From the sequence record MT446401.1: a DNA stretch of 52,344 bases; one strand, 5' to 3'. The translations under genes were made by a program, and so were the position numbers. The notes below the pieces were generated by a model, which was not told the DNA's origin, searched no databases, and saw only the letters and a list, made by a program, of their open reading frames with translations. Below are positions 23,401 through 38,491 of the stretch, one piece after another. This DNA comes from Escherichia virus TH27. The number at the start of each line of letters is the position of its first letter. Position 1 is the first letter of the stretch.

Positions 23401-23404
23401 AATA

Positions 23405-23428: not shown

Positions 23429-23439
23429 TTGGAGGTAAT

Positions 23440-24186: not shown

Positions 24187-24917
24187 TTAACGGCAAAATT
24201 AAGATGGCAATCTTCGAACATGCAAAATCAGTTTACCCCAATGAATGTTGCGGGGTGGTCACTCAGAAAGGACGAGTGCAAAAATACTGGCCTATTGACA
24301 ACGTTCACTCGGAACCGGAAAAAGGTTTTCAGCTTCATTCGGTACAGTACGCTTGCGTTGAGGATGACGCCGACCTAACTACAATCGCTATCGTCCATAG
24401 CCATACTGGCGACGGGGCCACCACTTTACCAAGCGCTCACGACCTGTGTATGTTAAACGAGATGGAAGTGCCATGGGTTATTGTAAGTATTCCGGAAGGT
24501 GATATGAGAATCGTTAACCCTGAAGCCATGCCTCTGATTGGTCGCCCATGGTCGCTCGGATCGTTCGATTGCTGGGGATTGGTGATGGCGTGGCACAAAG
24601 AACATGGCGTGATCCTGAATGACTTCCGAAAGCCTTACGAATGGTGGAAGCCTGAATATGGAGAGAATCTATACCAGGACAACTACATTAAGGAGGGGTT
24701 CGTTGAAACAGGAAAAGATCCAGAACCTGGTGATATGGTTATCATGAAACTACAGGCTGATGTGTGGAATCACGCTGGGATTTACCTTGGAAATAATCAA
24801 CTCCTTCACCACGCATTCGGTAAGCTGTCAAAGACGGATATTTACTCAGGCTGGTTCCAGGATCACACAGTTATGGTTTGCAGACATAAGGAATTAAAGA
24901 ATGAAATCATGCTCTAA
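24183..24917 (+). CDS. Tail assembly protein, lambda K-like (244 aa): JAMM/MPN plus NlpC/P60-like
   Basis: HSHTGDGATTLPSAHD metal-binding motif; C-terminal Cys/His; ATGA coupling. Confidence 0.8.
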   Translation: MINGKIKMAIFEHAKSVYPNECCGVVTQKGRVQKYWPIDNVHSEPEKGFQLHSVQYACVEDDADLTTIAIVHSHTGDGATTLPSAHDLCMLNEMEVPWVIVSIPEGDMRIVNPEAMPLIGRPWSLGSFDCWGLVMAWHKEHGVILNDFRKPYEWWKPEYGENLYQDNYIKEGFVETGKDPEPGDMVIMKLQADVWNHAGIYLGNNQLLHHAFGKLSKTDIYSGWFQDHTVMVCRHKELKNEIML

Positions 24918-25395
24918 GTGCGGAGAGGTTAAACCTCTAGATATGTTCTATAAAAATAGCGGTTGCGTTGGTGGATATAGGCATGACTGCAAGAGCTGCG
25001 CAAACAAAGCAAGAAAGATTGCTAGAAGTAGAGATATTGACACAACAAGGGAGTATGGTAGGAAGTATGCTAAAGAGTGGATTTCAAGAAACGCAGAGAA
25101 AACAAAAATGTATGGCTATGAAAAATTAGACAAAAAGAAAATCAGAGATAACGACCTTGATTTGGATTTTTGCATTAATGAAATGAAGAAGCCATGTATT
25201 TATTGTGGATTCACTGATAATCCATGTAACGGACTGGATAGAATTGATAATTCCATTGGTCACATAAAAGAAAACTGCGTACCATGCTGTCAGTTGTGTA
25301 ACGTAACAAGAATGGATAATTACTCACATCAAGAGTTCTTAGAATATATGGCTCCTGGTATAGTGGCGTTAAGAAAAAGTAGAGGTGAAATATAA
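24901..25395 (+). CDS. HNH homing endonuclease (164 aa) inserted between tail genes K and I
   Basis: Cys-rich zinc-ribbon segments, GLDRIDNSIGH...N motif; AT-rich relative to neighbours. Confidence 0.75.
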   Translation: MKSCSKCGEVKPLDMFYKNSGCVGGYRHDCKSCANKARKIARSRDIDTTREYGRKYAKEWISRNAEKTKMYGYEKLDKKKIRDNDLDLDFCINEMKKPCIYCGFTDNPCNGLDRIDNSIGHIKENCVPCCQLCNVTRMDNYSHQEFLEYMAPGIVALRKSRGEI

Positions 25396-25988
25396 TGTTA
25401 AAAACAATTAAGCTATCCGGTTCGCTGGGCCGTCGATTCGGTGTTTTCCATAAGTTCGACGTTGACTCATACCCCGAAGCAATTCGGGCGTTATCCTCCC
25501 AGGTGGAAGGGTTCAAGGAGTTTATGCAGAGTGAGATCGGTTCACGTATGCACTTTGCTGTGTTCGTTGACGGAAAGAATGTAGGCCAGCATGACGAGGC
25601 CGCGTTCAGTTGCGCAAAGGAGATTAGGGTAATCCCGATCCCTACAGGTTCAAAGAGTGGAGGCATGTTCCAAATCGTATTGGGTGCTGCAATGATGGTT
25701 GCCGCATTCTACACTGGCGGCGCATCACTAGCGCTTATGGGCACATTCGCAACGTCAGCATTTATGATGGGTGGGGCAATGGTTCTCGGCGGTGTAATGC
25801 AGATGATTTCACCACAACAGGGCGGAGCTAAGATGGAAATTCAGAGCAGCAAGAATAGGCCATCTTACGCATTTGGCGGGGCAGTGAACACCACGGCGGC
25901 AGGGAACCCGATACCTATCCCATACGGGTACAGAACTGTTGGCGGGGCTACTTTCTCAGCGTACAGCCTGGCAGAAGATATGGACTAA
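25395..25988 (+). CDS. Tail assembly protein, lambda I-like (197 aa)
   Basis: Gly/Ala/Met-rich hydrophobic central segment; position before J. Confidence 0.8.
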   Translation: MLKTIKLSGSLGRRFGVFHKFDVDSYPEAIRALSSQVEGFKEFMQSEIGSRMHFAVFVDGKNVGQHDEAAFSCAKEIRVIPIPTGSKSGGMFQIVLGAAMMVAAFYTGGASLALMGTFATSAFMMGGAMVLGGVMQMISPQQGGAKMEIQSSKNRPSYAFGGAVNTTAAGNPIPIPYGYRTVGGATFSAYSLAEDMD

Positions 25989-25994
25989 TTAATA

Positions 25995-26019
25995 ACCTCC
26001 CTTGTGGAGGTTTTTTTTC
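25995..26019 (+). terminator. Rho-independent terminator / attenuator
   Basis: acctccc-ttg-tggaggt plus T8. Confidence 0.65.
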
Positions 26020-26064
26020 GCCTGTATAATGAAAATCAAACAAACGCACAAAAGGTTAAACATT

Positions 26065-29000
26065 ATGAACAAATATGATGTAACGGGCCGTAAAGGTGGG
26101 AGCAGCAAGCCACATACCCCACAGGAGATGGAAGACAATCTGATCTCAATCAATAAAATCAAGGTTCTCCTGGCTGTAAGTGATGGCGAGGTTGACGGCA
26201 ATTTCTCCATGCAGGATCTGTATCTCAATGATGTGCCAGTTATCGCACCTTCTGGTGAAGTAAACTACAACGGAGTTAAAGCTGAGTTCCGACCAGGTAC
26301 GCAGACTCAGAGTTACATCCAGGGTTTCGCCGACACCGCCGCCGAGTTTACGGTAAATCGTGAGTTGAAGACCACGACACCGTATGTTATCTCAATTACC
26401 AATAAGCAACTTTCGGCGGTCAGGGTTAAAATTATGATGCCGCGCGGTGTTAAAACTGAGAGCAATGGCGATATGGTTGGCGTTAGCGTTAACTACGCGG
26501 TTGACATGGCGGTGGATGGCGGTTCCTACAGTGAAGTCCTTAACGACACGATTAACGGCAAGACAATGAGCGGATATGATCGCACTCGAAGGATTAACCT
26601 CCCGTCATTCAACAGCCAGGTTCTGTTAAGGGTTCGCAGGATTACAGCAGACTCCACTGATGCCAGGCTGGTTGACGCCATTAACATTCAGTCTTACGCA
26701 GAGGTCGTTGACGCCAAGTTCAGATATCCACTGACTGGTTTACTTTACGTTGAGTTTAACTCTGAGCTATTCCCTCAGATCCCAAGCATCAGCGTGAAAA
26801 AGAAATGGAAGCTGATTAACGTACCGACAAACTATAACCCTGAGATGCGTGAGTATAGCGGCACGTGGGATGGGAGTTTTAAAAAAGCATGGTCAAATAA
26901 TCCGGCGTGGGTGCTTTATGATTTGATCACCAATCATCGCTACGGACTCGACCAACGTGAATTAGGGATCGAGGTCGACAAATGGTCACTTTACGACGCC
27001 GGGCAATACTGCGACCAGAAAGTGCCAGATGGTCATGGTGGAACTGAACCACGCTATCTTTGCGATGTGGTTATTCAGTCTCAGGTTGAGGCGTACACCC
27101 TGGTTCGTGATATTTGCTCAATTTTCCGTGGAATGAGCTTTTGGAATGGTGAGAGTTTATCAATCGTTATCGACAGGCCGCGTGAGCCGTCCTACATCTT
27201 CACAAACGATAACGTAATTGATGGTTCGTTCTCTTACACTTTCGCCAGTGAGAAGAGCATGTACACGTCCTGTAACGTGACGTTTGATGATGAGCAGAAT
27301 ATGTATAGCCAGGACGTCGAAGGTGTATTCGACCTTGAGGCATCATTGAGGTTCGGTCACAACCCAACAAGCATCACTGCGATCGGGTGTACGCGTCGAA
27401 GCGAGGCCAACAGGCGCGGACGGTGGATTCTTAAAACAAACCTGCGTAGCACTACGGTGAACTTTGCCACAGGACTGGAAGGCATGATCCCAATGGTTGG
27501 TGACGTAGTTTCAATCGCCGACAATTTCTGGTCAAGCAACCTCACACTTTCACTTTCTGGTCGTGTGATGGAGGTTTCTGGTTTGCAGGTGTTTACGCCA
27601 TTTAAGGTTGATGCTCGCCCAGGTGATTACATAATCATCAATAAGCCGGACGGGAATCCGGTTCGCAGGACTATTGCCAGCGTGTCTCAGGACGGGAAGA
27701 CAATCCAGCTAAACGTTGGATTTGGGTTTGACGTTAAGCCTAATACAGTTTTCGCAATCGACCGCACTGACGTAGCTCTACAGCAATACGTTGTAACATC
27801 AATCGGTAAAGGAGACGGTGATGAGGAGTTTACATATAGCATCACGGCAGTTGAGTACGACCCGAATAAGTACGACGAGATCGACTACGGCGTAAACATT
27901 GATGACAGGCCAACTAGTATTGTCGATCCTGACAACATCATGCCACCAGATAACATCGACGTTTCTTCATACTCCAGGGTTGTTCAGGGGATGAGCGTTG
28001 AAACCATGGTTGTTGGTTGGGATAAGGTTCAGTACGCGAGCCTTTACGATGTGCAGTGGCGCAAGGATAATGGCAACTGGATGAACGTACCGCGCACAGC
28101 TAACTCGGAAGTTGAGGTTGAAGGGATTTATGCAGGCAATTATCACGTGCGCGTAAGGAGCGTGGCAAGTTCAGGAAATACTTCGCCATGGTCTAATATA
28201 GTTAGCGTTGCGCTGACAGGTAAGATCGGAACGCCATCATCGCCTATTAATATCACGGCGTCTGACGATGAGGTGTTTGGTATTAGGATTAAGTGGGGCT
28301 TCCCTACAGATGCAGGAGATACGGCATACACTGAATTGCAGCAGGTTAAGGATAATGGTGACGGCACATACAATCCAGAAAACGCATCGCTGCTAACGCT
28401 TATTCCGTACCCTCAGTACGAATACTGGCACTCAACCTTACCGGCAGGGATGGTCATCTGGTACAGAGCGAGACTGATAGACAGGATCGGAAACCAGTCT
28501 CCATGGACTGACTTTGTTAGAGGAATGACTTCTGACGACGTTTCTTCGATTATCGGTGATATCAAGGTTGATATTGAAGACTCTGATGGATATAAGTACC
28601 TACTACAGAACGCAATTGATAACAGCACTGATATCCAGAATCAGGCCGAATCAATCATTGAAAACGCGCTCGCGAATGATTCTGACGTGAGGATTATGAC
28701 CAAGGAGAATGGAAAGAGGAAAGCGGAATTTAGGCAGGCGGTTGTTCTTATTGCTGATGAGACACAGGCCCGAGTAGATGCTCTAACTGAGCTTAAGGCG
28801 CAGATTGATGATGAAGTGGTTGCATCAATTACTGAGGTTAAAACAGCGCTAGCAACAGAGACTGAGGCAAGAACCTCAGCTGACACGGCGTTAAACGCGA
28901 GGCTTGGTGAGAACGAGGCGGCGTTAACTCAGAAGTTAGAGTCATATGCAACAGCAGACGCTGTTGGTGCACAGTACGGAGTTAAGCTTGGCCTCAAATA

Positions 29001-29439
29001 CCAGGGGGTTGAGTATGGTGCCGGAATGAGCATGGAGCTTGTTGGCTATGGTGGCAATGTTCGCAGCCAGATGATTTTTGACGCTGGAAGGTTCGCGATC
29101 AGTAACGGGATTAGTAGTGGTTCCGGTCAGTGGTCACTGCCTTTTGTAGTGGAAAATAATCAAGTGTTTATGCAAAGCGCATTCATCCAGGACGGTTCAA
29201 TCACGAATGCGAAGATTGGTAACAGGATTCAATCTAACAATTACGTTCAAGGAAGTCAGGGATGGGCTATTGATAAGTCAGGGAGTGCGGAGTTAAACAA
29301 CGCAACAGTTCGTGGTAGTTTGTACGCCAGTAACGGTAACTTCGCCTTTAACGGAACGAACAATACTGTCGTCATAAACAACAACGGAATAACGGTTAAC
29401 TTGCCAAATGGTGGGAGGGTAGTAGTTGGTACGTGGTAA
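26065..29439 (+). CDS. Tail tip / host specificity protein, lambda J-like (1124 aa)
   Basis: Very large ORF after I; start 26065 chosen (RBS AAAAGG) because track start 26002 overlaps the terminator. Confidence 0.85.
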   Translation: MNKYDVTGRKGGSSKPHTPQEMEDNLISINKIKVLLAVSDGEVDGNFSMQDLYLNDVPVIAPSGEVNYNGVKAEFRPGTQTQSYIQGFADTAAEFTVNRELKTTTPYVISITNKQLSAVRVKIMMPRGVKTESNGDMVGVSVNYAVDMAVDGGSYSEVLNDTINGKTMSGYDRTRRINLPSFNSQVLLRVRRITADSTDARLVDAINIQSYAEVVDAKFRYPLTGLLYVEFNSELFPQIPSISVKKKWKLINVPTNYNPEMREYSGTWDGSFKKAWSNNPAWVLYDLITNHRYGLDQRELGIEVDKWSLYDAGQYCDQKVPDGHGGTEPRYLCDVVIQSQVEAYTLVRDICSIFRGMSFWNGESLSIVIDRPREPSYIFTNDNVIDGSFSYTFASEKSMYTSCNVTFDDEQNMYSQDVEGVFDLEASLRFGHNPTSITAIGCTRRSEANRRGRWILKTNLRSTTVNFATGLEGMIPMVGDVVSIADNFWSSNLTLSLSGRVMEVSGLQVFTPFKVDARPGDYIIINKPDGNPVRRTIASVSQDGKTIQLNVGFGFDVKPNTVFAIDRTDVALQQYVVTSIGKGDGDEEFTYSITAVEYDPNKYDEIDYGVNIDDRPTSIVDPDNIMPPDNIDVSSYSRVVQGMSVETMVVGWDKVQYASLYDVQWRKDNGNWMNVPRTANSEVEVEGIYAGNYHVRVRSVASSGNTSPWSNIVSVALTGKIGTPSSPINITASDDEVFGIRIKWGFPTDAGDTAYTELQQVKDNGDGTYNPENASLLTLIPYPQYEYWHSTLPAGMVIWYRARLIDRIGNQSPWTDFVRGMTSDDVSSIIGDIKVDIEDSDGYKYLLQNAIDNSTDIQNQAESIIENALANDSDVRIMTKENGKRKAEFRQAVVLIADETQARVDALTELKAQIDDEVVASITEVKTALATETEARTSADTALNARLGENEAALTQKLESYATADAVGAQYGVKLGLKYQGVEYGAGMSMELVGYGGNVRSQMIFDAGRFAISNGISSGSGQWSLPFVVENNQVFMQSAFIQDGSITNAKIGNRIQSNNYVQGSQGWAIDKSGSAELNNATVRGSLYASNGNFAFNGTNNTVVINNNGITVNLPNGGRVVVGTW

Positions 29440-29445
29440 ATGATT

Positions 29446-29470
29446 AAGCCCCTTTCGGGGCTTTTTCTTT
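29446..29470. terminator. Terminator hairpin between convergent genes (T-run on + strand only)
   Basis: aagcccc-tttc-ggggctt with T-run on + strand; - strand side has only an interrupted run. Confidence 0.75.
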
Positions 29471-30432
29471 TAGTAGAAGTTAGGAATGAATGGAAGTGCC
29501 ATTGATATGTTTGTGTCGAATGGGAATTGAGCGCCAGTCTGAGTTGAATAGTTGCCTATTACAGATCCTGGAACGGCCCTAACGGAGCCGCCAGACATGC
29601 AAACCCCCTTATACCGAAGGTTGTTATACCCACCTGTAACTCTAGTCGTAGCGCCGCATCTAAGAAGTGGGAAGAAGCCACCATTTATTGACTGGTATCC
29701 ATTGTTAATCTGGATGAATCCACCCAGAACGAAAGGTCTGCGAACACTAGAGAAAACAATCTGGCCAGATCCGTTTGACATTGTAAGTCCTGGGCCTGCT
29801 GGCGGCGGCTCATTTCTGAATATAACCAGCTGGACGTAAGTGCTAGCCCCAACGTCATCAATCCCGCCGTAGTTTGAATCCCTGCACCATATCGTACTTC
29901 CATCACTCTCAAGCGACACGTTTGGGTTATCCCACTTACCGAAAGGTATTCCGCTGACAGGAAGTGACGCAGCACCATTTACCTGAATCCCACCAACCCA
30001 TGCAGCAGACATTAGCCTTGAATTGCTTGATATTGCCAGGAAGTCAGTTGAGTTTTCGACAAGCACCCCTGGGCTTGATGAGGACGCTGCAGGTAGAATC
30101 TCAAAGCACTGACCACCAAACTGCAATATCCGACCATTCGCCCCGTTAAAGTTGCTTAAGGTAATCCTTCCGACTCCATCATTTACCTTTGAGAAGCCAT
30201 TCATATAATAAACTTCAGGAACAACATCATATGCATCAACATATACAGCCTGCGTCGGCAAGCAGAATGCAGTTGAGCCAGGAGACATGGATAACCCAAA
30301 ATCCCATGAACTAACCGGAGACGAAATCCCGCTTGTATTTATCGATCCAGTCACAGCAGGCGCTCTCAATCCTGCTGTTATTTCCATCGCTGGCCTTCCA
30401 TCGTTAAGGTCGATCAGTATACCATGCCCCAT
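29470..30432 (-). CDS. G/S/N-rich protein (320 aa), possible receptor-binding or fiber-associated protein
   Basis: Start moved to ATG at 30432 (RBS AAGGAG 7 nt upstream, just after lipoprotein stop); function inferred only from composition and position. Confidence 0.6.
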   Translation of the reverse strand: MGHGILIDLNDGRPAMEITAGLRAPAVTGSINTSGISSPVSSWDFGLSMSPGSTAFCLPTQAVYVDAYDVVPEVYYMNGFSKVNDGVGRITLSNFNGANGRILQFGGQCFEILPAASSSSPGVLVENSTDFLAISSNSRLMSAAWVGGIQVNGAASLPVSGIPFGKWDNPNVSLESDGSTIWCRDSNYGGIDDVGASTYVQLVIFRNEPPPAGPGLTMSNGSGQIVFSSVRRPFVLGGFIQINNGYQSINGGFFPLLRCGATTRVTGGYNNLRYKGVCMSGGSVRAVPGSVIGNYSTQTGAQFPFDTNISMALPFIPNFY

Positions 30433-30433
30433 C

Positions 30434-30676
30434 TTACCACTCCTTAGAACCGTGATCTGCAACCGAACCGCCGTAGCCGCCACCTGCTTTTGATTCAATA
30501 CCAGCATAGCGAATATCAACCTCACCAGCTGGAACCACCACGCCACCTTTCCACTTCGCAACGCAAACATCACCAGCCTGGGTAGCGCACCAGCCGTCAG
30601 GTCGGTGGCCGGAAGAACAACCTACAGTCATGATTACTGCTGCTGCGATGATTGCTGATTTGATGAAGTTAGTCAT
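30434..30676 (-). CDS. Lipoprotein (80 aa), possible superinfection-exclusion lipoprotein
   Basis: Signal peptide with lipobox VGCSS; RBS AAGGA; sits beside receptor-binding genes. Confidence 0.7.
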
Positions 30677-30716
30677 TTTTGAATCCTTATTAAGTATGTT
30701 TCGTTTCGATGGAGTA

Positions 30717-30756
30717 ACTATACACCAACCATTAATTTAGTTTTAGCAATTCGTGC
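30717..30756 (-). promoter_or_regulatory. Palindromic box plus TATAGT (- strand) with CATCGAAACGAA leader
   Basis: Box 30742..30756, hexamer complement 30717..30722, leader 30700..30711; overlaps end of Rha-like gene. Confidence 0.5.
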
Positions 30757-31361
30757 GTTTTACCCGTCAGTGCGATAATTGTATCTTTCGATACCTCCAG
30801 CTTCATTTGTAATCCTTCGCATTGAGCCTGATATGAATACACGTTTTCCTGCGACTCATAATATCTATTGTTTTCGATTCGAATATTAGCCACCAAATCG
30901 TCGATTTGAGAGCCAGAACCTTCAGACTCTAGAATCTTATCAAGTACCTTGCTTTGCGCGTAGTACAGGTCTTCTATGCGGTGCTGCGCTGAAATGGCTC
31001 TATACTTCTGTTGGTGCTCATCAATAACCTCGTCAATTGAAACCATTTTGGAGTTGTGAGATTTAAGAACATTAACTTCATGCTCAAGCGACTTTATTTT
31101 CTGGATCATCTTCATTCTGATTTTTGCGCTGTATTTTGCAACAAGGCATAGCGTGTGATCCTTATCCAGAATGGCTACGTTATGCATCTTTCCTTTATGA
31201 TATTCTTGCTCCTCAAATTGAGGAACAAGGTTTTCTCCATATAAATCAACATACATAGCATTGACATCCCTTATAATGTTGTCGTGACGAACTCCTGTAA
31301 TCTTGGCAATCTCAAGGCTGGTCATGGTCATTTCTTCGTTTGTGATGGTTAATTCGTTCAT
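30732..31361 (-). CDS. Rha-family phage regulatory protein (209 aa)
   Basis: N-terminal [19 protein letters not shown] segment characteristic of Rha-type regulators; RBS GGAG. Confidence 0.7.
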
Positions 31362-31903
31362 TTTTCAATCTCCATTAGTGATCGCGTGATTGCGATGCGT
31401 GTATTTTGCACACTTTAATCTGATTGTCTTTAGCTATTCGTGCTTTTTGGTGTCAAATATGCAAATGCAACGATATACGCGTAACCGATGTAACTCGATG
31501 TATACAATCTAATCCTCGGAAAATTGTATACGCCCTGTTACGCCGATTTACGCTATAGTTACATTAAAATATCTATATATATCAACCTTTTACTCTTATT
31601 ATTATTATTATATATATTACTGTGTATATCGTGTAACTACTTCTATAGAGTGTTCCGATTATAAATTTCTAATATGGTTATTTATACAGTATTTAATCAC
31701 AAATACACCAATGCACCCTCAGCGAAAAATGATATACACGATATACACACTGTTTACATTAAGCTATAGCTGGGCTGGATAGCCATTTTATGTAACTAAC
31801 GCCATTGCATACACGCAATTACAAATATCTACACGTAACCACTTGACTAACGCAACCAAGCGTGTATAGTTAGCCACATCAACAACGAACGAGGATTAAA
31901 GAG
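31362..31903. other. 540-bp AT-rich intergenic region with TATAC(A/G)C-type repeats between divergent operons
   Basis: No ORF; repeated atacac/atacgc units, tandem gatatacac x2 at 31730..31749, (TTA)5 at 31596..31610. Confidence 0.7.
31843..31870 (+). promoter_or_regulatory. sigma70-type promoter (TTGACT-16-TATAGT)
   Basis: TTGACT 31843..31848, 16-nt spacer, TATAGT 31865..31870. Confidence 0.55.
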
Positions 31904-32956
31904 ATGACAGAGCCACTGTTTCAATACTTCACCTCAGAAGAAATGAGCAACGACTTTTACCACAGCAAGGATGAGTGGACCGCCGATTATGTATCAGGTT
32001 CATCGCTGAGCAAGATTCACAGCACTTGCCCTGCGGCGTGGAAGTTTGAAATGAACTCAACGACTAAGGCGCTTGTCTTCGGTACGCAGTCGCATACCAA
32101 TTTCGAGAGTAAGGCACTGTTTGAACGCCAGTATCGTCGCGCACCAAAAGATAGCGAGATTGCAAACGTAATCACTAGCCAGGCGGCCTTGGCTACGAAA
32201 TTAAAATCATTTGGCCTGACTGGTACAAGCGGCAAGCAATATCCAGAGCTAATCAAAATGATGGTTGATTGCGGCGAAGACCTCAACGTCATGTGGCTGA
32301 TTGATATGATCGCACAATGTCAGGCGTGGGCGGATGGCGTGGAACTGGTTAAGGCGGAAGACTACGACGCTTGCGTAAGTATGCGCCAGGTTCTTGAAAT
32401 GATTCCTGAGCATAACGCTTGCATGAACAGCGAGACTGCATTCCGTGAGTATTCGTTGTTCGGCGTAATTTGTGGCGTTAAAGTCAAGGTTCGACTTGAC
32501 CATGTTGACATCATTAATGATCCAGAAGCCATCCGACGCATGGGTTACGATCCTGAGATTCACCCTGAAATTGTCGTCATCACTGATTACAAAACAACAA
32601 TGAGCGCCAACCCGACCGAGTTCCCGCGCCTGGCGTTCAACCTTGGGTATTACCTCAAGATGGCATTGCAGCGTGACCTGTTCGTCAAGTGCTTTGAGGA
32701 AACGCGACCTGTGGTTGTGCGATTACTGGCCCAGGAGAAGAAGGAGCCTTACTTGCCTATGGCGTACCGGATGAGTGGGGATCAGCTTAAGATTGGGCGA
32801 GCGCAGTACATGAGCGTGATTCACACCTTTTCAATGTGCGAAGCCAATGATGTGTGGCCTTCATACAATAATGGCGAGCCGGAAGTCGAACTGGAGACGC
32901 CGCCATGGGTAATGAAGCAATTTGAGTCAATACTATTAATTTCAATGAGAAATTAA
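31904..32956 (+). CDS. PD-(D/E)xK family exonuclease (350 aa), RecB/Cas4-like
   Basis: D..(13)..ITDYKT motif typical of PD-(D/E)xK nucleases; adjacent to Erf recombinase. Confidence 0.7.
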   Translation: MTEPLFQYFTSEEMSNDFYHSKDEWTADYVSGSSLSKIHSTCPAAWKFEMNSTTKALVFGTQSHTNFESKALFERQYRRAPKDSEIANVITSQAALATKLKSFGLTGTSGKQYPELIKMMVDCGEDLNVMWLIDMIAQCQAWADGVELVKAEDYDACVSMRQVLEMIPEHNACMNSETAFREYSLFGVICGVKVKVRLDHVDIINDPEAIRRMGYDPEIHPEIVVITDYKTTMSANPTEFPRLAFNLGYYLKMALQRDLFVKCFEETRPVVVRLLAQEKKEPYLPMAYRMSGDQLKIGRAQYMSVIHTFSMCEANDVWPSYNNGEPEVELETPPWVMKQFESILLISMRN

Positions 32957-33030
32957 AATACATAGACGGCAACCTTTACTGGATAAAAAGCGGTAAGATT
33001 GCCGGAACACCGAAAGGTAACGGGTACTTA

Positions 33031-33393
33031 ATGATCTCATTTAACTATGTGAAGCTTCTAGCTCATAGGGTTATATGGGAAATGCACTACGGACCTATAC
33101 CAGAAGGTTACGAGATAGACCACATTAACGGAATAAGAAGTGATAACAGGATTGAAAACCTAAGACTTGTAACTAGAGCCATCAACAATAAAAATAAAAA
33201 GATGCAGTCAAATAACACATCAGGATTCACAGGTGTTGTTTTTGTTAAGCAAAGATGTAAATGGAACGCAAGGGTAAAGGTAAATGGAGTGCAGAAAAGC
33301 CTTGGTAGTTTCAATACAGCAATTGAAGCGAAAGAGGCAAGGGAAAGATACATCTCAATGAATGGTGATTTTACTTTAAGGCATGGCAGGTAG
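33031..33393 (+). CDS. HNH-AP2 homing endonuclease (120 aa from ATG; in-frame N-terminal extension back to 32926 has no ATG/GTG/TTG)
   Basis: HRVIWEMHYGPIPEGYEIDHINGIRSDNRIENLR motif; upstream in-frame KYIDGNLYWIKSG matches N-termini of the HNH genes at 44399 and 49326. Confidence 0.7.
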   Translation: MISFNYVKLLAHRVIWEMHYGPIPEGYEIDHINGIRSDNRIENLRLVTRAINNKNKKMQSNNTSGFTGVVFVKQRCKWNARVKVNGVQKSLGSFNTAIEAKEARERYISMNGDFTLRHGR

Positions 33394-33432
33394 CACTTTT
33401 TGCTAAACAAGAATGCGGTGATTTGCTATAAT
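33391..33432 (+). promoter_or_regulatory. Palindromic box TAGCACTTTTTGCTAAA plus TG-c-TATAAT in hairpin
   Basis: Box 33391..33407; hexamer 33427..33432 inside cggtgat/atcaccg. Confidence 0.55.
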
Positions 33433-33469
33433 CACCGTAAATCAAACGAAGTAAACAAAGGTATATATA

Positions 33470-34126
33470 ATGCGTACATCAGAGAAGTTTTCGAATGTTT
33501 CGGCCGCTCTAATTGCAGCTAAAAAGCAGTTTGCCATCGCAAAAAAATCAGGATTCAATACTCACCTGAAAACACATTACTCAAACCTGACGGACGTTCT
33601 GGAGGCCGTAGAGCCAGCGCTAAAAGAGCATGACCTTATGGTTATCCAGTCAAACCTGGACACGTCAACCGAGAAGGTTATGCACATTGAAACACTCATC
33701 CTTCATAGTTCCGGCGAGTGGCTTGCGTTCCAGTACAACATGCCGATCGAGAAGATTAGCGCCCAGGCTTACGGTTCAACAACCTCATACGGTCGCCGTT
33801 ACGCATTGTGCGCAGCGCTTGGAATCACTCAGAGCGATGACGATGCAGAAATCGCGAAGCGCACGGCAGCAGACTACAAAAAACTGATCACAAACTGTGA
33901 AAAACTGGAAGACCTCCAGGTCATCTATAAGAGCGCGAAAGGTTCACTTGGTGCGGCGGAATGGAAGATTGCAGAAGACCACTTGCAGAAGCGCAAGGCT
34001 GAATTGAGTATCGGTAGCGCTCGCGGTTTCCAGCCAGCCAAAAAGGCCGAGGCGCAAAAGGTTGAAGACAAGGTTGCAAATGCACCGTCCGAACCTGTAC
34101 AATCTGAATCCATCGAGCAATTCTAA
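33470..34126 (+). CDS. erf: Erf-family single-strand annealing recombinase (218 aa)
   Basis: SGEW...TSYGRRYALCAALGI..DDDA pattern typical of ERF family. Confidence 0.8.
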   Translation: MRTSEKFSNVSAALIAAKKQFAIAKKSGFNTHLKTHYSNLTDVLEAVEPALKEHDLMVIQSNLDTSTEKVMHIETLILHSSGEWLAFQYNMPIEKISAQAYGSTTSYGRRYALCAALGITQSDDDAEIAKRTAADYKKLITNCEKLEDLQVIYKSAKGSLGAAEWKIAEDHLQKRKAELSIGSARGFQPAKKAEAQKVEDKVANAPSEPVQSESIEQF

Positions 34127-34166
34127 TTAACGGGGCTTCGGCCCCATCCAATAAGGAAAATAAAAA

Positions 34167-34589
34167 ATGCCACACGTAATCACTGGTCAGATCCGTAAAG
34201 CACCTTTTACCAAAGAAGGCAGTAACAACAACGGGCGCTGGAAAATGTACGCCGTTGAACTGTCAGAACGCATGAAGATTCGCAATCAGCAGGGCGAGGA
34301 TGAGACGGTTTACAGCAACTACCGCGCCACGTTCTTCGCAAAAGAAAACGTTATGCAGTGGTATGATGAAGCATTCCAGGAAGGTAAGGTTGTATCAATT
34401 TCTGCCGACACTCTTCACTTGGCGTCACGCCAGGGTAATGATGGCACTGTGTATGTAACAGCTGAAATGATCAGGCCTCAGTTGCAATTCAGCCAGCGTG
34501 AGACGTCGCAACAGCGACAGCAGCCACAACAACAACAAAGACAGCAACCGCAGCAACAAAGCCAGTTCGATGACGATATTCCTTTCTGA
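34167..34589 (+). CDS. ssb: Single-stranded DNA-binding protein (140 aa)
   Basis: Gln-rich linker and C-terminal DDDIPF, identical to the bacterial SSB acidic tip. Confidence 0.85.
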   Translation: MPHVITGQIRKAPFTKEGSNNNGRWKMYAVELSERMKIRNQQGEDETVYSNYRATFFAKENVMQWYDEAFQEGKVVSISADTLHLASRQGNDGTVYVTAEMIRPQLQFSQRETSQQRQQPQQQQRQQPQQQSQFDDDIPF

Positions 34590-34599
34590 TGTAAAAGAT

Positions 34600-34624
34600 A
34601 AAGCCCCTTTCGGGGCTTTTTTTG
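34600..34624. terminator. Terminator hairpin between convergent genes (T-run on + strand only)
   Basis: aaagcccc-tttc-ggggcttt followed by T-run on + strand; - strand side has only an interrupted run. Confidence 0.8.
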
Positions 34625-36835
34625 TTACCAGTCTGAAAAGACTAAAAGTCCTCTCATTGAGTTCCTGTAAAAATCAACAGTTCCTGAACCAAGATTAAAC
34701 TGAATATAAAAAAGGTTATCCTTAGCATTAGCTGAAAGAGATCTTGTTGCTCCAAATTTATAAGGCGAACCAGATTCAATTGGTGTATTTGTCAATAAGT
34801 TACCATCATAACCAGAACTCGTGTATCCAGTATATAAGTTACCAGACAGTGAAGCACCTCCATTTGCGTTATTCATCTGAACCCAGGCACTAAAACCTGT
34901 CCTACATTTTATCGTCGTGGCAAAAATACTACCATCACGCTTAAAACATATACCAGACATATCAATACCCGCTTGAGATGTTGAATGATCTCCATCAGCA
35001 GCGCCACTAACAACCCTTGTCGGCCATGCATTATTTGCAATAAGACCATCAGATGTAAACCTGTCAACTGGCAAAGCTTTGTCTAAAATATCACCCAAAG
35101 GCCAATGCTTCTGATTTGCATTACCTCCAAAAAGGTATGCCTCAGTAACAAGTGGCTTGACGAATTTTTTATTTGCAAGCGACTTAATCAAATCCCTAAA
35201 CTCTTGTGTATTTCTCACATTTGTAGTTATCGATGTGTCGCCTGCACCATCCCATACAAAGGCACCAAACTCACCATTCCCAACCTGACCGAATATCTTG
35301 CTTGCGATTACAGTTTGCTGAGTTGTTCCAAATAAAACAGAGTTATCCCCAAAAGATGATACTACAGGTATAACCCTACTGCAGCCAGTCATTTTCATTA
35401 CGCCGCCATAATCAAGCCTCATCCCGATAAGATCTTGCTCTACAGCGTCACTAACACTTAAACCAGGTCTGTTTAATGAGTATGAATTACACAAAACAAT
35501 ATCGTAATCAGTGCTATAAATCTGCTTAAATGGACCGGTTCCAGGCGGTAGCTGATCAACCATACTAAGACTCTTGTCAGTGAGAGATCTAAGCTGTGAT
35601 ATCTTACTATTCTGATCTGCAACACTAATACCCCTGGCTCCCGGTTCGTCATATACAGAGTAACCTATAACAGCAGGATGATCTTTAGTTGCAGCCACGA
35701 ATGCGGCTAAATCATTTTTAGCAGCATCGCTTTCAGTTCCTAGATTAACACCAAGACCAGCAGTAAGAGCGTTATCAAGTAGCTTCTGAACCGTGCCATC
35801 AGAATCGATATTGCCATTGTTGGAAAAGTAACAGTAATGGTTAATGCAGTTAATGCCAAGTGACTTAATGTAAAGTAATTCTGATAAGTCATACGCAGAT
35901 TCAAGGTAAATCATCTTAATTTTATCTACATTAATATCCCCAGAATTGAAAGGTACTGGAACCGACCCTAACCCATTTAAACCGTATCTTATGGTGGATA
36001 TCCTTCCCGGACCTAAGATTTTCTGACCTTTGCTATTTATAATTCCACTAACAAGGTAGGTGCCAGATAAGAATACCTGATTTCCAGTATCTAAAGCACT
36101 CTGCAAGGATACCGTATCGTCTGACACTCCATCACCGATGGCTCCAAATGACTCAGGGTAAACAATTGACTTTGTTATCTTGCTGTCAACTTCAGTCTTT
36201 GAGTAGACGTCAAGGTTATTCCTTGCAAGTGGCTTGTCTGTTAAGTCGGACAGTGATAAGTCCTTTCTTAATAAGTTTTCAGTATCAAGTGATGCTGCAT
36301 AATCTGCCGCCTCCTGCGCTGAAGCTGCTGCCGAATCCTTGTCAGCGGATGCGCTAATTGCACTTGCTGCGGCGGAATTCTTATCCGCAGAAACTTGAGC
36401 AGCATCATTGGCAACTTGAGCGCCAATAGATACAACATCGCCATGCTGCGTATTTACCTGGGTAACTTTTGATTCAAAATCATTAACATCAAAGTTATTA
36501 AATGCATCAACTGCATCAGCAACCTCAGTTTCACTTGACTGATAGTAACGAAGAGTCTCAGCGACGTCCTGAGCCAGACCTTGAACTGTAATCCCGTCAT
36601 GAGCCAGGATGAAATACTGAGTGCCTGCCGGAGCTATAAATCCCTTATCGTTAAATGCGCGGATGCTTGTGTCACTCAAGATCTCAGCGATTGTCACGAT
36701 GCTAATCGGTGATGTATTGAAAATCATCGTTGCACCAACGCGAATGAGCGTTAGTGGTTGTCGCCATGTTGTTCCAACACCAGTAACTGTACCATCTGCC
36801 GATAAAGAGGCAGTTCCTGCATCATAAATAGCCAT
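34625..36835 (-). CDS. Tail fiber / tailspike protein (736 aa)
   Basis: N-terminal Ala/Ser-rich repeats (SADKNSAAASAISASADKDSAAASA); large C-terminal domain; AT-rich. Confidence 0.75.
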   Translation of the reverse strand: MAIYDAGTASLSADGTVTGVGTTWRQPLTLIRVGATMIFNTSPISIVTIAEILSDTSIRAFNDKGFIAPAGTQYFILAHDGITVQGLAQDVAETLRYYQSSETEVADAVDAFNNFDVNDFESKVTQVNTQHGDVVSIGAQVANDAAQVSADKNSAAASAISASADKDSAAASAQEAADYAASLDTENLLRKDLSLSDLTDKPLARNNLDVYSKTEVDSKITKSIVYPESFGAIGDGVSDDTVSLQSALDTGNQVFLSGTYLVSGIINSKGQKILGPGRISTIRYGLNGLGSVPVPFNSGDINVDKIKMIYLESAYDLSELLYIKSLGINCINHYCYFSNNGNIDSDGTVQKLLDNALTAGLGVNLGTESDAAKNDLAAFVAATKDHPAVIGYSVYDEPGARGISVADQNSKISQLRSLTDKSLSMVDQLPPGTGPFKQIYSTDYDIVLCNSYSLNRPGLSVSDAVEQDLIGMRLDYGGVMKMTGCSRVIPVVSSFGDNSVLFGTTQQTVIASKIFGQVGNGEFGAFVWDGAGDTSITTNVRNTQEFRDLIKSLANKKFVKPLVTEAYLFGGNANQKHWPLGDILDKALPVDRFTSDGLIANNAWPTRVVSGAADGDHSTSQAGIDMSGICFKRDGSIFATTIKCRTGFSAWVQMNNANGGASLSGNLYTGYTSSGYDGNLLTNTPIESGSPYKFGATRSLSANAKDNLFYIQFNLGSGTVDFYRNSMRGLLVFSDW

Positions 36836-36860
36836 AATTGTAAATCCCTAATTTAGTTGA

Positions 36861-36889
36861 TAGCACGATTTGCTAAATGCAGTATACCA
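36861..36889 (-). promoter_or_regulatory. Palindromic box with adjacent TG-g-TATACT (- strand), upstream of tail fiber gene
   Basis: Box 36861..36877; -10-like complement at 36881..36889; here the box lies between -10 and gene. Confidence 0.4.
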
Positions 36890-36900
36890 TCTTTCTGGCA

Positions 36901-36923
36901 TAAAAAAACCCGCCGAAGCGGGT
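36901..36923 (-). terminator. Rho-independent terminator (- strand) after primase gene
   Basis: acccgc-ttcg-gcgggt with T7 on - strand. Confidence 0.7.
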
Positions 36924-36928
36924 AATTG

Positions 36929-37873
36929 TTATGAATACTTATCTATCAGATCCTGAGGCGTATATAGCTTTCTTTCAAGGCCCATTCTGAAGTTCCCTCC
37001 GTTCGGCACAACCACTTTTAAATCTCGCTCGTCAGCCATGTAAAGCGCTCGCAAATCATCTGCCAGACACGCTACTCGTAACTCCCGATCGCCACGATAC
37101 CGATAAGCAACAATCTCAAGATTCTCAGGGGAGAAAGTCACCCACACTTCCTGATTGGTTGCCATCTTCACGCGGTAGCCATCAATAAGATCGCTTGTCA
37201 TATATATGGCCGCATCGGCCTCGCCACTCCCAAGCTTAACAACTGAGCCGCGAGAATAATCGCGAGCAAGGAAAGTGTATTCGCCATTATCATAAGCAAA
37301 CATGACGTTACACATATCCTCATCAATTCCGTCAGGGTGGACCATGTAGCACGGCAGTGCGTGTATTAGCTCCTCAGTGCCATTCTGGCGCATTTTTACG
37401 CCAACGTCATATGAATCTTCGGTTAAGCACTCATACACGCTTAAATCGGTGTTCTCGCGCTTTTCTGTGCGCTCCATTACTGCTACGCACGACTCATGAT
37501 CCGCCATCTTGCCAAGTCCTTTTTCCGGTACGCGCGACGCCCTGCGGTAAGCTTTAGCTTTGTAATCCTGCGGAACTTTGCCAAGGAATCGACCAAGGAT
37601 GTTAATCACTTCACTGTAAGGCTCACCAGTCAGCTTCATCATCCAGCCAACGCCCTTGTCGTTCCCACAACCGTTACATATAGCGCCACCATCACCTGGG
37701 GAGTCGAGTTCGTCAGTCCAACGGAATCGGTCCTTGCCGCCACAGTAAGGGCATGGCTGGTGCTTTTTATTGAACACGCCGGACTGCAATCCACAAATGG
37801 ATTGTAACGCCTCACGCCATAATCCTTTCATATACGGCAGTACTTCTTCTTTCTGGTAATTAGGTTCGTTCAC
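36929..37873 (-). CDS. DNA primase-like protein (314 aa) with N-terminal zinc ribbon
   Basis: CPYCGG...(19)...CNGCG zinc-binding motif; position in replication module beside helicase. Confidence 0.6.
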   Translation of the reverse strand: MNEPNYQKEEVLPYMKGLWREALQSICGLQSGVFNKKHQPCPYCGGKDRFRWTDELDSPGDGGAICNGCGNDKGVGWMMKLTGEPYSEVINILGRFLGKVPQDYKAKAYRRASRVPEKGLGKMADHESCVAVMERTEKRENTDLSVYECLTEDSYDVGVKMRQNGTEELIHALPCYMVHPDGIDEDMCNVMFAYDNGEYTFLARDYSRGSVVKLGSGEADAAIYMTSDLIDGYRVKMATNQEVWVTFSPENLEIVAYRYRGDRELRVACLADDLRALYMADERDLKVVVPNGGNFRMGLERKLYTPQDLIDKYS

Positions 37874-37925
37874 TGCTTTAACTCCAATAAAAAAGGTTGC
37901 ACCAATTATGGCACAACCTTGATTG

Positions 37926-38399
37926 TCATTCTTTAGCTTTTCGTGCTGCTTCGTTTGCTGCTTTAATTTTTCGCCACGATCGACACTCTGGCTTTGTGGC
38001 TAGTTCAGCCTCAGTGACCACGCGCAGCATGTGACGCTTTTTGCACCGCAGAGTAAGTGGCTTACCGTTCCCGTCGAATTGCAGATCCGGTCGGCAGAAT
38101 GTAGCGCGGAACCCTTCGCCAGTTCGCTTATATCGGTTGTGCGCCAGTTGAGCGCCGCGCGCCGACATCATTCCACGCTTAAACCATTCCTCAACTGCCT
38201 GACGAGTAACCTTTAATTGTTTTGCCATGTTCGCCTTGCTGCCGTAGAACTCAAATACAATATCAAGTCGCGCTCTTAATCCGGCCTTTACTTCATCCTT
38301 TAGAACATAGTAACCTGACGGTCGCTTACGCTGCTTCTTATCTTCTGTGCGGATAGTTCCGTTGTTACCGTTAAGAGTACGCTTATCAGTTGCATTCAT
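37926..38399 (-). CDS. HTH DNA-binding protein (157 aa), candidate transcription regulator
   Basis: Helix-turn-helix-like segment ANMAKQLKVTRQAVEEWFKRG; basic; divergent from helicase promoter. Confidence 0.65.
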   Translation of the reverse strand: MNATDKRTLNGNNGTIRTEDKKQRKRPSGYYVLKDEVKAGLRARLDIVFEFYGSKANMAKQLKVTRQAVEEWFKRGMMSARGAQLAHNRYKRTGEGFRATFCRPDLQFDGNGKPLTLRCKKRHMLRVVTEAELATKPECRSWRKIKAANEAARKAKE

Positions 38400-38412
38400 T
38401 TTATCACCTCAA

Positions 38413-38454
38413 TAGCACTTTTTGTTAAACATTGGTTTCGATGGTTGCTATTAT
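38413..38454 (+). promoter_or_regulatory. Palindromic box plus TG-c-TATTAT in divergent promoter region
   Basis: Box 38413..38429; hexamer 38449..38454. Confidence 0.5.
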
Positions 38455-38491
38455 AACGTCAATCGAACGAACATGAAAGGCATTTAATACT

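What the first reader, a model, noticed from the sequence alone, without database searches (positions are those of the whole stretch)
31362..31903. AT-rich 540-bp intergenic region with iteron-like repeats and a motif shared with the genome terminus
This is the largest non-coding stretch in the genome and sits between divergent operons (Rha-like gene leftward, exonuclease-Erf-SSB rightward). It contains many TATAC(A/G)C units, including tandem gatatacac x2 at 31730..31749, and a (TTA)5 run. A segment atcaaccttttactcttattattattatta (31581..31610) closely resembles acaaccttttatctatattattattattattattatta inside the terminal repeat (221..258). The shared sequence suggests a common binding site, for example for an origin-binding or host nucleoid protein, or a replication origin placed next to the recombination and replication genes.
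Basis: seen in the sequence. Interest (0 to 1): 0.55.

Follow-up and report, generated by a model that had tools for sequence, protein, structure and literature searches.

The report
Duplicated origin-like DNA module, T1-like phage
This non-coding stretch is one of two copies of a conserved DNA module in T1-like phages (short protein-binding words spaced one helical turn apart around the most easily melted DNA in the genome), and it is the best candidate so far for the family's unidentified replication origin.

Summary
The gap 31362-31903 lies in a T1-like (Drexlerviridae) coliphage. About 97 nt of it (31525-31613) are paralogous to 165-261. Both sites carry TAC(G/A)C, GTTAC and GTAAC words at ~10-bp spacing, in opposite orientations on either side of a 60-100 bp AT tract. 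These two tracts are the least stable duplex DNA in this genome and in T1, Rtp and AHP24. In 56 of 56 related loci the AT tract lies upstream of recE. The layout is conserved across the family, but the word differs by clade (GTAAC/TTACA, GAACA or GTAAGA), and in TLS it is the same in both copies. That points to a phage-encoded binding protein. There is no support for a structured RNA, a hidden gene, DnaA-box or GATC clustering. Separate conserved promoters lie at the edges of the gap. The module's sequence type co-segregates with an MCM-like helicase that ends in a winged helix and with a Cro-like regulator. Best reading, at about 0.5: a replication origin for an initiator-type helicase. Main rival, at about 0.3: an operator and early-promoter array. 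No experiment yet separates the two.

The parts
31427..31447 (-). Copy of the family's 21-nt repeat (consensus aaATAGCACnnnTTGnTAAAA), pointing leftward. It is degenerate in this window and perfect in relatives. It marks the leftward promoter unit for the Rha/cor operon.
   Evidence: Alignment of 14 phages. TAGCA-N5-TGCTA gives 18 matches in the window against 1.45 expected. The repeat is described in TLS (PMC11447400).
31474..31505 (-). Left outer word array: TATACGCGTAAC-CGAT-GTAAC-TCGAT-GTATAC, with 9-10 bp spacing. It lies within a block (31474-31523) that is almost invariant across three subfamilies.
   Evidence: conservation; TRF period 10 at 31481-31502; TLS-like clades have TGTTC x3 at the aligned positions.
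31526..31563 (+). Inner left array: GTATACGC, TGTTACGC, TTTACGC, GTTACA, i.e. TACG-N6-TACG-N6-TACG-N6-TACA with starts at 31529, 31539, 31549 and 31559. The words are invariant and the spacers vary.
   Evidence: Paralogous to 168-203. Spacing histogram.
31564..31620 (.). AT tract, the candidate DNA-unwinding element. It contains an IHF-core-like TATCAACCTTTTA (31580-31592) and (TTA)5 (31596-31610). Its length varies among relatives and between the two copies.
   Evidence: Least stable 80-nt duplex stretch of the genome, z 5.0. The same holds at the homologous place in T1, Rtp and AHP24 and in 56 of 56 recE loci. IHF core match.
31621..31640 (-). Inner right array TGTGTATATCGTGTAACTAC, inverted relative to 31526-31563. 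TAGTTACAT (31556-31564) and its near-exact inverse at 31631-31639 (GTGTAACTA here, ATGTAACTA in most relatives) form a 9-bp inverted repeat bracketing the AT tract. The array is also the left arm of a perfect 15-nt inverted repeat with 31735-31749.
   Evidence: I3; pairs 88-96/164-172 kept in 13-14 of 14 sequences, no covariation.
31731..31758 (+). Array GATATACAC x2 plus GTTTACA (TACA words at 9 and 11 bp spacing). TLS-like clades have GAACA x3 at the aligned positions.
31808..31839 (+). Promoter-proximal array TACA-N6-TACA-N6-TACA (starts 31811, 31821, 31831) followed by CGTAAC, abutting the -35 hexamer.
   Evidence: The same form as the RstA and OmpR motifs (PMC7315122).
31843..31870 (+). 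Sigma-70 promoter for recE-erf-ssb: TTGACT, 16 nt, TATAGT.
   Evidence: 10 of 12 consensus match. TTGACT-N17-TAnAAT is conserved in 23 of the 24 dereplicated upstream regions, 22 of them relatives; the 24th, L076, is gapped there. No transcription start has been mapped.
165..273 (+). Second copy of the module core (module B): TACGC (169), CACGC (178), TACGC (188), GTTACA (198-203), an AT tract with (TTA)7 at 238-258 (TRF: TAT x8 at 236-259), then CGTAAC (267-272). TGGTTAC (196-202) and GTAACCA (267-273) form an inverted repeat. It reappears at 52107-52215 inside the 402-bp end duplication.
   Evidence: nhmmer E 1e-12; second least stable site, z 4.8; conserved in 8 phages.
46851..48494 (-). 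Candidate trans-acting factor: DUF3987, an MCM-like AAA+ (SF6) helicase with a C-terminal winged helix. Its true start is probably M21. It lies in the leftward operon that starts in gap B.
1046..1579 (+). Motor-less 'mini' paralogue of that helicase, holding its N-terminal helices and its C-terminal lid plus winged helix. It is the second gene to the right of module B.
37926..38399 (-). Alternative candidate factor: a Cro/YdaS-like HTH regulator (homologue of T1 gp23 and rtp52) between the primase and SF2 helicase genes.
   Evidence: 89% and 87% identical to Rtp and AHP24. Its recognition helix does not map one-to-one onto the word class.

Best explanation
The region is one of two paralogous copies of a cis-acting module found across the family (module A upstream of recE; module B about 165-270 bp inside the pac end). 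The core of each is a set of 5-6 bp recognition words spaced one helical turn apart, arranged in opposite orientation on the two sides of the most easily melted tract in the genome. I propose these are the phage's replication origins. In this model a phage protein reads the words. The most likely reader is the winged-helix end of the MCM-like DUF3987 helicase, possibly modulated by its motor-less paralogue. Oppositely oriented complexes assemble on the two flanks, the AT tract melts, and the phage primase and host polymerase take over. The sigma-70 promoter for recE and the leftward 21-nt-repeat promoter unit sit at the edges of the gap and are separate elements, although transcription may help opening. 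What is shown: the words, their phasing, their orientation, their conservation, the duplication, clade-specific words, the low duplex stability, and the predicted folds of the candidate proteins. What is inferred: that any protein binds the words, which protein it is, and that replication starts here.
For: (1) Words are enriched against dinucleotide shuffles: TACRC 14 vs 4.4, GTWAC 7 vs 1.6, 0 of 2000 shuffles each. YGTAAC occurs 6-8 times against 0.4-0.9 expected in gap A of four genomes. (2) Same-strand word spacing peaks at 9-11, 18-21 and 29-31 nt in three independent word classes. (3) Words are invariant and spacers variable across 14 phages of three subfamilies, and the intergenic core matches at 80-87% nucleotide identity where the flanking genes no longer match by megablast. 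(4) There are exactly two copies per genome, in the same orientation, in the window, Rtp and AHP24 (nhmmer E 1e-12 to 1e-54). T1 and TLS have the same layout at both places. (5) The two sites are the two least stable duplex stretches in each of four genomes (z 4.6-6.2; next best 3.4-3.6). In 56 of 56 recE loci the least stable stretch lies upstream of recE, 327-404 nt in 55 of them and 162 nt in one, even where sequence similarity is lost. (6) The word differs by clade at the same aligned positions (GTAAC/TTACA, TGTTC/GAACA, GTAAGA/TCTTAC), and both TLS modules use the TLS word. (7) Inverted words bracket the AT tract in both copies. (8) In this mosaic genome only the MCM-like helicase (92/90%), the HTH regulator (89/87%) and a 79-aa protein (92/87%) match Rtp and AHP24 as closely as the module does. 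Primase, SF2 helicase and TerS do not, at 35-60%. (9) The helicase is MCM-like and ends in a winged helix, and its terminal module most resembles ORC/Cdc6 (PMC4889955). (10) The phage has its own primase and helicases, and no origin is known for the family.
Confidence: 0.5

Rival explanations
1. It is a regulatory hub and not an origin. In this reading the two modules are paralogous operator or activator-site arrays, comparable in logic to lambda OL and OR. They would control immediate-early, back-to-back promoters inside the AT tract as well as the edge promoters, and would be read by the Cro-like HTH regulator or another phage transcription factor.
For: Both modules sit in the two long divergent gaps, which must drive four early transcription units. 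TACA-N6-TACA-N6-TACA abuts the -35 of the conserved recE promoter, and the outer arrays are oriented with transcription. The form matches OmpR and RstA sites. Promoter-like hexamers occur in the AT tract of both copies, and other annotators predicted promoters there. The HTH regulator co-segregates with the module type at 89/87%. The K-class word pairs with a single recognition-helix type.
Against: The family's ordinary promoter unit, the 21-nt repeat plus a sigma-70 promoter, occurs about 18 times without any such module, including at the third divergent junction 38400-38491. The promoter-like scans are not above shuffle expectation: 5 vs 3.4 and 3 vs 2.3. The (TTA)n run differs by 9 nt between the two copies and by 1 nt among orthologues, which shifts any -35/-10 pair spanning it. 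A 60-100 bp tract at z 5-6 with inverted words on both sides is more than a UP element. GAACA-class phages have at least 7 different regulator helices.
Confidence: 0.3
2. The words are binding sites for a host response regulator of the OmpR/PhoB family (OmpR, RstA, ArcA or CpxR-like), or for IHF, which the phage recruits for transcription or DNA bending.
For: TACA-N6-TACA and GTTACA-N4-GTTACA are the published RstA and OmpR motifs. One IHF-core match lies inside a module in each of four genomes, although each genome has only 3-5 such matches.
Against: Three different words occupy the same positions in phages that all infect E. coli, and the word changes together in both TLS modules. The IHF core is absent from module A of Rogunavirus. 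No host-factor binding could be tested here.
Confidence: 0.06
3. It is a packaging element: the modules are terminase small-subunit recognition sites, i.e. pac or a secondary pac.
For: Module B lies about 165-270 bp from the point where T1 and several other records start, which is the pac end. Phased repeats with a bend site are typical of pac and cos sites.
Against: Module A is about 20 kb from the pac end going leftward on the circular map and is the better conserved copy. T1 and TLS are described with a single pac. A different set of words (TTGCAATGAT/ATTGCA) straddles the pac end itself and is absent from module A. TerS does not follow the module's similarity pattern.
Confidence: 0.04
4. 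It is a structured non-coding RNA, a small hidden gene, or a conserved recombination junction with no function of its own.
For: Small ORFs of 40-46 aa exist, and some records annotate 'hypothetical proteins' here. The flanking gene cassettes vary, as at mosaic junctions.
Against: No Rfam match at E<=1. The consensus fold is only -12.55 kcal/mol over 183 columns, with covariation term +0.51 and 1 of 34 pairs compensatory. Variable columns fall 27/25/24 by codon phase, and 1-nt indels occur. A pattern of conserved words and variable spacers, clade-specific words and duplication all indicate selection on DNA sites.
Confidence: 0.03

Closest known systems
Origins used by initiator-helicases: SV40/polyomavirus large T antigen (GAGGC pentanucleotides), papillomavirus E1, phage P4 alpha (ori and crr, TGTTCACC iterons), SaPI Rep. 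All of this is from memory, apart from the structural hit to the SaPI5 primase-helicase.
   Same: Short words of 5-8 bp in multiple copies and opposite orientation flank an AT-rich tract. The element encodes its own helicase carrying a DNA-binding domain. Word specificity differs between lineages (SaPI). A second cis copy lies elsewhere in the genome (P4 ori and crr). The site is embedded between divergent promoters (SV40).
   Different: Those helicases belong to SF3. This one is an SF6, MCM-like DUF3987 protein with a separate primase gene. No binding or origin activity is shown here. The arrays extend over about 370 bp and reach a promoter. A motor-less paralogue of the helicase is encoded next to module B.
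Archaeal oriC with origin recognition boxes (ORBs) bound by Orc1/Cdc6. The origin architecture is from memory; structural hits 2qby and 1w5s are.
   Same: Inverted recognition elements flank an AT-rich unwinding element. The predicted winged-helix module of the phage protein most resembles ORC/Cdc6 winged-helix domains.
   Different: ORBs are longer, about 20-35 bp. The phage protein is a helicase homologue, not an Orc1/Cdc6 initiator. The similarity is fold-level only, at roughly 12% identity.
Iteron origins such as lambda ori and plasmid iteron replicons, and the two origins oriL and oriR of pac phage SPP1 (from memory).
   Same: Repeated initiator sites lie next to an AT-rich tract. SPP1 is a precedent for two related origins in a headful-packaging phage.
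   Different: Iterons are 17-22 bp and bound by a dedicated initiator, and no homologue of O, Rep or G38P was found here. The TLS authors looked for such iterons and found none. Here the words are 5-6 bp.
Tandem-repeat sites of OmpR/PhoB-family winged-helix regulators (OmpR GTTACAnnnnGTTACA; RstA TACA-N6-TACA; PMC7315122).
   Same: The word and the 10-bp spacing are nearly identical: TACG/TACA-N6 repeated 3-4 times, and GTTACA.
   Different: The word differs among phages of the same host, so a host regulator is unlikely. The arrays are far more numerous, are inverted around an AT tract, and are duplicated in the genome.
The 21-nt intergenic repeat of T1 and TLS, aaATAGCACnnnTTGnTAAAA (PMC11447400).
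   Same: One copy, pointing leftward, lies inside the finding at 31427-31447.
   Different: It is a separate, already described element present upstream of most operons.

Membership tests
Iteron/word-plus-DUE replication origin | Multiple copies of a short recognition sequence clustered at one locus | tested here: met
   Enriched against shuffles and against genome density. Conserved words with variable spacers.
Iteron/word-plus-DUE replication origin | An adjacent AT-rich region of low duplex stability | tested here: met
   The two least stable sites in four genomes, and the least stable site in 56 of 56 recE loci.
Iteron/word-plus-DUE replication origin | A cognate initiator encoded by the same element binds the repeats | not testable with these tools
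   There are only candidates: the MCM-like helicase with a winged helix and the HTH regulator. Co-segregation is suggestive, but the word-class test was inconclusive.
Iteron/word-plus-DUE replication origin | Replication initiates at the site | not testable with these tools
   No marker-frequency, 2D-gel or plasmid-rescue data were found for any T1-like phage.
DnaA-dependent oriC-type origin | A cluster of DnaA boxes (TTWTNCACA) and of GATC sites | tested here: not met
   One exact DnaA box in the window's gap A and none in T1, Rtp or AHP24. GATC is at or below expectation.
Sigma-70 divergent promoter region | Consensus -35 and -10 elements correctly placed upstream of each flanking operon and conserved in relatives | tested here: met
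   TTGACT-16-TATAGT at 31843-31870, conserved in 22 of the 23 relatives aligned (one, L076, is gapped there). The leftward 21-nt repeat unit is present in the relatives whose sequence spans it. These occupy only the edges of the gap. No transcription start has been mapped.
T1/TLS 21-nt intergenic repeat family | [quoted passage not shown] | tested here: met
   31427-31447 on the minus strand, about 70-85 nt upstream of the Rha start. It has 2 mismatches to the palindromic core here and none in most relatives (D8, 33, 70).
OmpR/PhoB-type response-regulator binding array | Tandem direct repeats of a 5-6 bp half-site at 10-11 bp spacing | tested here: met
   Word starts at 31529, 31539, 31549, 31559 and at 31811, 31821, 31831. 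Spacing histogram. Motifs from PMC7315122.
OmpR/PhoB-type response-regulator binding array | The sites are recognised by a host response regulator | tested here: inconclusive
   Binding cannot be tested here. Three clade-specific words in phages of one host argue against a host reader.
pac site (terminase recognition) | Located at the unique packaging-initiation end | tested here: not met
   Module A is mid-genome. Only module B is near the pac end, and a different set of words straddles that end. TerS similarity does not follow the module.
Known RNA families (Rfam) or a conserved structured RNA | A covariance-model match, or covariation supporting a fold | tested here: not met
   No match at E<=1. 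Covariation term +0.51 and 1 of 34 pairs compensatory.
DUF3987 / SF6 MCM-like phage helicase (the candidate trans factor) | A PF13148 match, an MCM-like AAA+ fold and a C-terminal winged helix | tested here: met

The most novel reading that the evidence does not exclude
T1-like phages carry two paralogous origins that are recognised directly by the winged-helix end of their MCM-like (SF6) helicase, so the helicase would act as a self-loading initiator. The 5-6 bp recognition word has switched at least three times in the family. Initiation is tuned by a motor-less 'mini-helicase' that keeps only the terminal domains and competes for the same words or for the helicase. This would be the first defined origin and initiation mechanism for a DUF3987/MCM-like helicase in bacteriophages.
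Probability: 0.2. Interest if true: 0.8.

Novelty: new variant of a known kind. Interest (0 to 1): 0.62.

Why it matters
T1 is one of the seven classic T phages, yet its replication origin has never been identified. Recent papers on TLS and SU57 state that none could be found. This analysis gives two precise, family-wide candidate sites and a defined grammar: word, phasing, orientation and AT tract. It also provides three natural specificity classes that can be swapped experimentally, and a short list of proteins to test. If the MCM-like helicase reads the words, T1-like phages would be a tractable bacterial model for origin recognition by an MCM-family helicase. If the regulator reads them instead, the same map defines the early-gene control regions of a phage family that matters as a fermentation contaminant and as a therapy candidate.

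Tried and rejected
- Rfam scan of 31000-32300 on both strands at E<=1: no match.
- RNAalifold and a single-strand fold: weak energy and no covariation. The only consistent 'pairing' is the DNA inverted repeat around the AT tract.
- Coding test: no codon periodicity, and 1-nt indels are present.
- GC skew: it follows gene orientation only.
- DnaA boxes and GATC clustering: absent.
- Promoter scans of both gaps: not above shuffle expectation. Only the edge promoters are conserved.
- Literature search for an origin, transcription start sites or transcriptomes of T1-like phages: none found. The Rtp genome paper is not held.
- Identifying the word reader by co-variation. Domain-wise identities of helicase, regulator, primase, SF2 helicase and TerS across five genomes gave no clean grouping by word class. 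Regulator recognition helix against word class in about 60 loci was not one-to-one. A locus search with the helicase returned only relatives at >=89% identity.
- Sequence search of the helicase and the regulator against PDB: nothing significant. Fold searches were needed.
- A crude ORF-based gap ranking picked up spurious small ORFs inside the gaps and was used only to bound the next-largest gaps.
- The P4 TGTTCACC iteron lead came from memory. The TLS-class word is TGTTC/GAACA without the ACC extension, so it is reported only as a resemblance.

Full report
**1. What the window is**

The window is a T1-like siphovirus genome (Drexlerviridae). The closest records are Nouzillyvirus-like phages: BUCT-XGG-1, PH1062, P817 and ESCO41. 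Its gene order matches that of T1. Bases 1-402 are repeated exactly at 51943-52344, so the unit genome is 51942 bp. Window base 1 falls at the place where the T1 record starts, which is the pac end, and several other deposited genomes start within about 300 bp of the homologous point.

**2. The observation**

31362-31903 is non-coding. To its left is a Rha-family gene on the minus strand. To its right are a PDDEXK exonuclease, an HNH endonuclease, Erf and a gene in the SSB position. GC content is 0.343, against 0.467 for the genome. The (TTA)5 run at 31596-31610 and the tandem GATATACAC at 31731-31748 are present.

TATAC[AG]C occurs 6 times, against 0.67 in dinucleotide shuffles (0 of 2000 reach 6), and 6 of the genome's 11 copies lie in this gap. 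The similarity to the 'terminus' runs over about 97 nt: 165-261 matches 31525-31613 with E 7e-12. On the circular unit, this gap (542 nt) and the gap holding the other copy (51842..533, 634 nt) are the two largest non-coding stretches. The next true gaps are about 210 nt.

**3. Anatomy**

From left to right the gap contains the following.
- A leftward copy of the family's 21-nt repeat at 31427-31447.
- An almost invariant block, 31474-31523. It contains GTAAC, GTAAC and GTATAC at 9-10 bp spacing.
- TACG-N6-TACG-N6-TACG-N6-TACA at 31529-31562.
- A 57-nt AT tract at 31564-31620. It holds an IHF-core match (31580-31592) and (TTA)5.
- The inverted array TGTGTATATCGTGTAAC at 31621-31637.
- Further arrays at 31731-31758 and 31808-31839.
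- The promoter TTGACT-16-TATAGT at 31843-31870, 34 nt upstream of recE.

TAGTTACAT (31556-31564) and its inverse (31631-39; GTGTAACTA here, ATGTAACTA in most relatives) bracket the AT tract. Copy B has TGGTTAC and GTAACCA in the same positions.

**4. Conservation**

By megablast, only the intergenic core (about 31474-31838) matches Rtp-like genera, at 84-87%; the flanking genes do not match at that level. The more sensitive search found 134 records matching at 80-93% identity. The flanking genes themselves differ between phages: Rha, cor or tail genes on the left; rtp46-like, Rha or recE genes on the right.

In an alignment of 14 phages from Braunvirinae, Rogunavirinae and Nouzillyvirus, the words are invariant and the spacers vary. 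The same pattern holds for copy B in 8 phages.

**5. Two copies per genome, at the least stable DNA**

A nucleotide profile of 31470-31645 finds exactly two hits per genome, in the same orientation. In the window they are 31475-31644 and 165-262. In Rtp they are 28004-28174 and 132-292, the second at E 3e-31 over almost the full profile. In AHP24 they are 22318-22484 and 42243-42348.

T1 has diverged in sequence but has the same layout at both places. With nearest-neighbour energies, the two sites are the two least stable 80-nt stretches in the window, T1, Rtp and AHP24: z 4.6-6.2, with the next site at 3.4-3.6. In 56 IMG/VR loci with recE 59-95% identical to the window's, the least stable stretch lies upstream of recE every time. 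It lies 327-404 nt upstream in 55 loci and 162 nt upstream in one, and the profile detects only four of the 56.

**6. Clade-specific words**

I aligned 24 dereplicated upstream regions. The layout is kept: a minus-oriented word array, a spacer, a plus-oriented array, the AT tract, a minus-oriented array, about 90 nt, further plus-oriented arrays, then the recE promoter. The word itself differs at the same aligned positions.
- The window, ESCO41, T1, Rtp and Rogunavirus use GTAAC/TTACA/TACRC.
- TLS-like clades use TGTTC/GAACA.
- A third clade of 34 loci uses GTAAGA/TCTTAC, 11 copies in 600 nt.

In TLS, the pac-proximal gap uses the same GAACA/TGTTC words in the same layout as the recE-proximal gap. 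Same-strand spacing peaks at 9-11 nt, with harmonics, in the T and G classes, and at 8 and 10 nt in the K class.

**7. What it is not**

- It is not a known or structured RNA.
- It is not coding.
- It is not a DnaA- or Dam-type origin.
- It is not explained by promoters alone. The conserved promoter elements occupy only the edges. The usual promoter unit of the family, the 21-nt repeat, occurs about 18 times without such a module, including at the third divergent junction.
- It is not pac. Module A is mid-genome, a different set of words (TTGCAATGAT/ATTGCA) straddles the pac end, and TerS does not follow the module's similarity pattern.
- GC skew is uninformative.

**8. Candidate proteins**

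The genome is mosaic. Most of its proteins are 40-60% identical to those of Rtp and AHP24. Three are about as similar as the module itself:
- a DUF3987 protein, 46851-48494 on the minus strand, at 92/90%;
- a Cro-like HTH regulator, 37926-38399 on the minus strand, at 89/87%;
- a 79-aa protein, 49090-49329 on the minus strand, at 92/87%.

Genes adjacent to these, such as primase, recE and erf, do not share the pattern, so simple linkage does not explain it.

Attempts to single out the word reader by co-variation were inconclusive.

**9. Interpretation**

The grammar consists of short phased words in opposite orientation on both flanks of a highly meltable tract. It is duplicated and lineage-specific, and the phage brings its own MCM-like helicase and primase. 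This is what origins used by initiator-helicases look like (SV40, papillomavirus E1, P4 alpha with ori and crr, SaPI Rep; from memory), and what archaeal ORB/DUE origins look like. I therefore rank 'replication origin' first, at about 0.5.

The main rival, at about 0.3, is a transcriptional control array. One array abuts the recE -35. The outer arrays point in the direction of transcription. The words match the form of OmpR and RstA sites (PMC7315122). A Cro-like regulator co-segregates with the module. The two readings are not exclusive, since phage origins are often activated by transcription.

**10. Comparison with the literature, and caveats**

Recent papers state that no origin could be found in TLS or SU57, and the TLS paper lists the function of the 21-nt repeat among open questions about T1-like phages. 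I found no description of this module.

Caveats:
- The word patterns were defined after inspecting the sequence.
- Duplex stability largely restates AT content.
- The related genomes are not independent samples.
- All protein-DNA statements are inferences.

Noticed in passing
window 1046-1579 (+) and 46851-48494 (-): A 177-aa protein is a motor-less paralogue of the MCM-like DUF3987 helicase. It keeps only the helicase's first ~48 aa and last ~64 aa (55-56% identity). It has 293 unannotated homologues in T1-like phages, and its predicted winged-helix module most resembles ORC/Cdc6.
   Followed up: yes
window 51885-51942 and 1-45 (also 52287-52344): A conserved block of repeated TTGCAATGAT / ATTGCA / GATTGTTGC words straddles window base 1. 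That point corresponds to base 1 of the T1 record (the pac end), so these are probably terminase recognition words. The block is conserved in 7 of 8 relatives aligned.
   Followed up: partly
window 1577, 2344, 3402, 3659, 4913, 5798, 7116, 7745, 15646, 33391, 36861, 38413, 41004, 42318, 48925, 50487, 51855 (and a degenerate copy at 31429): The family's known 21-nt repeat, whose core is the palindrome TAGCA-N5-TGCTA, gives 18 matches against 1.45 expected by chance. It lies upstream of operons in the direction of transcription. Its function is listed as an open question in the TLS paper. A dimeric HTH protein such as the Cro-like regulator is an obvious candidate reader.
   Followed up: partly
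whole window compared with T1, TLS, Rtp and AHP24: The genome is a mosaic. Its structural proteins are closer to T1 and TLS (50-80% identity) than to Rtp and AHP24 (35-60%). The MCM-like helicase operon, the HTH regulator, cor and its neighbour, the lysis genes and both AT-rich modules are Rtp- or Rogunavirus-like (up to 94%).
   Followed up: partly
window 50314-50357 and 50381-50424: A 44-nt direct repeat (89% identity, 67 nt apart: GTTTTGA..TTTCGTTGCTCCGGCCTACGTTTGCAACTTC) lies in the leftward early region. It is unexplained.
   Followed up: no
window 29436-29472 and 34591-34627: Nearly identical GC-rich hairpins (AAGCCCCTTTCGGGGCTTTTT; the 37-nt segments are 89% identical) sit at the two convergent gene junctions on either side of the recE block. 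They look like bidirectional terminators.
   Followed up: no
window 33031-33393 (+): An HNH endonuclease gene lies between recE and erf. T1 has no gene at that position, so this looks like a homing-endonuclease insertion.
   Followed up: partly
whole window; 41360-42088 (+): GATC is frequent in the window (202) and T1 (235) and rare in Rtp (72) and AHP24 (45). This matches the presence of a gene similar to the dam methylase genes of T1 and TLS, which has no counterpart in Rtp or AHP24.
   Followed up: partly
loci L121-L130 and L149-L175 (IMG/VR contigs): A large clade of T1-like phages (recE ~52% and regulator ~63% identical to the window's) uses a third recognition word, GTAAGA/TCTTAC, in the same module layout. 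All have the regulator recognition helix GVSIQVVQQW.
   Followed up: partly
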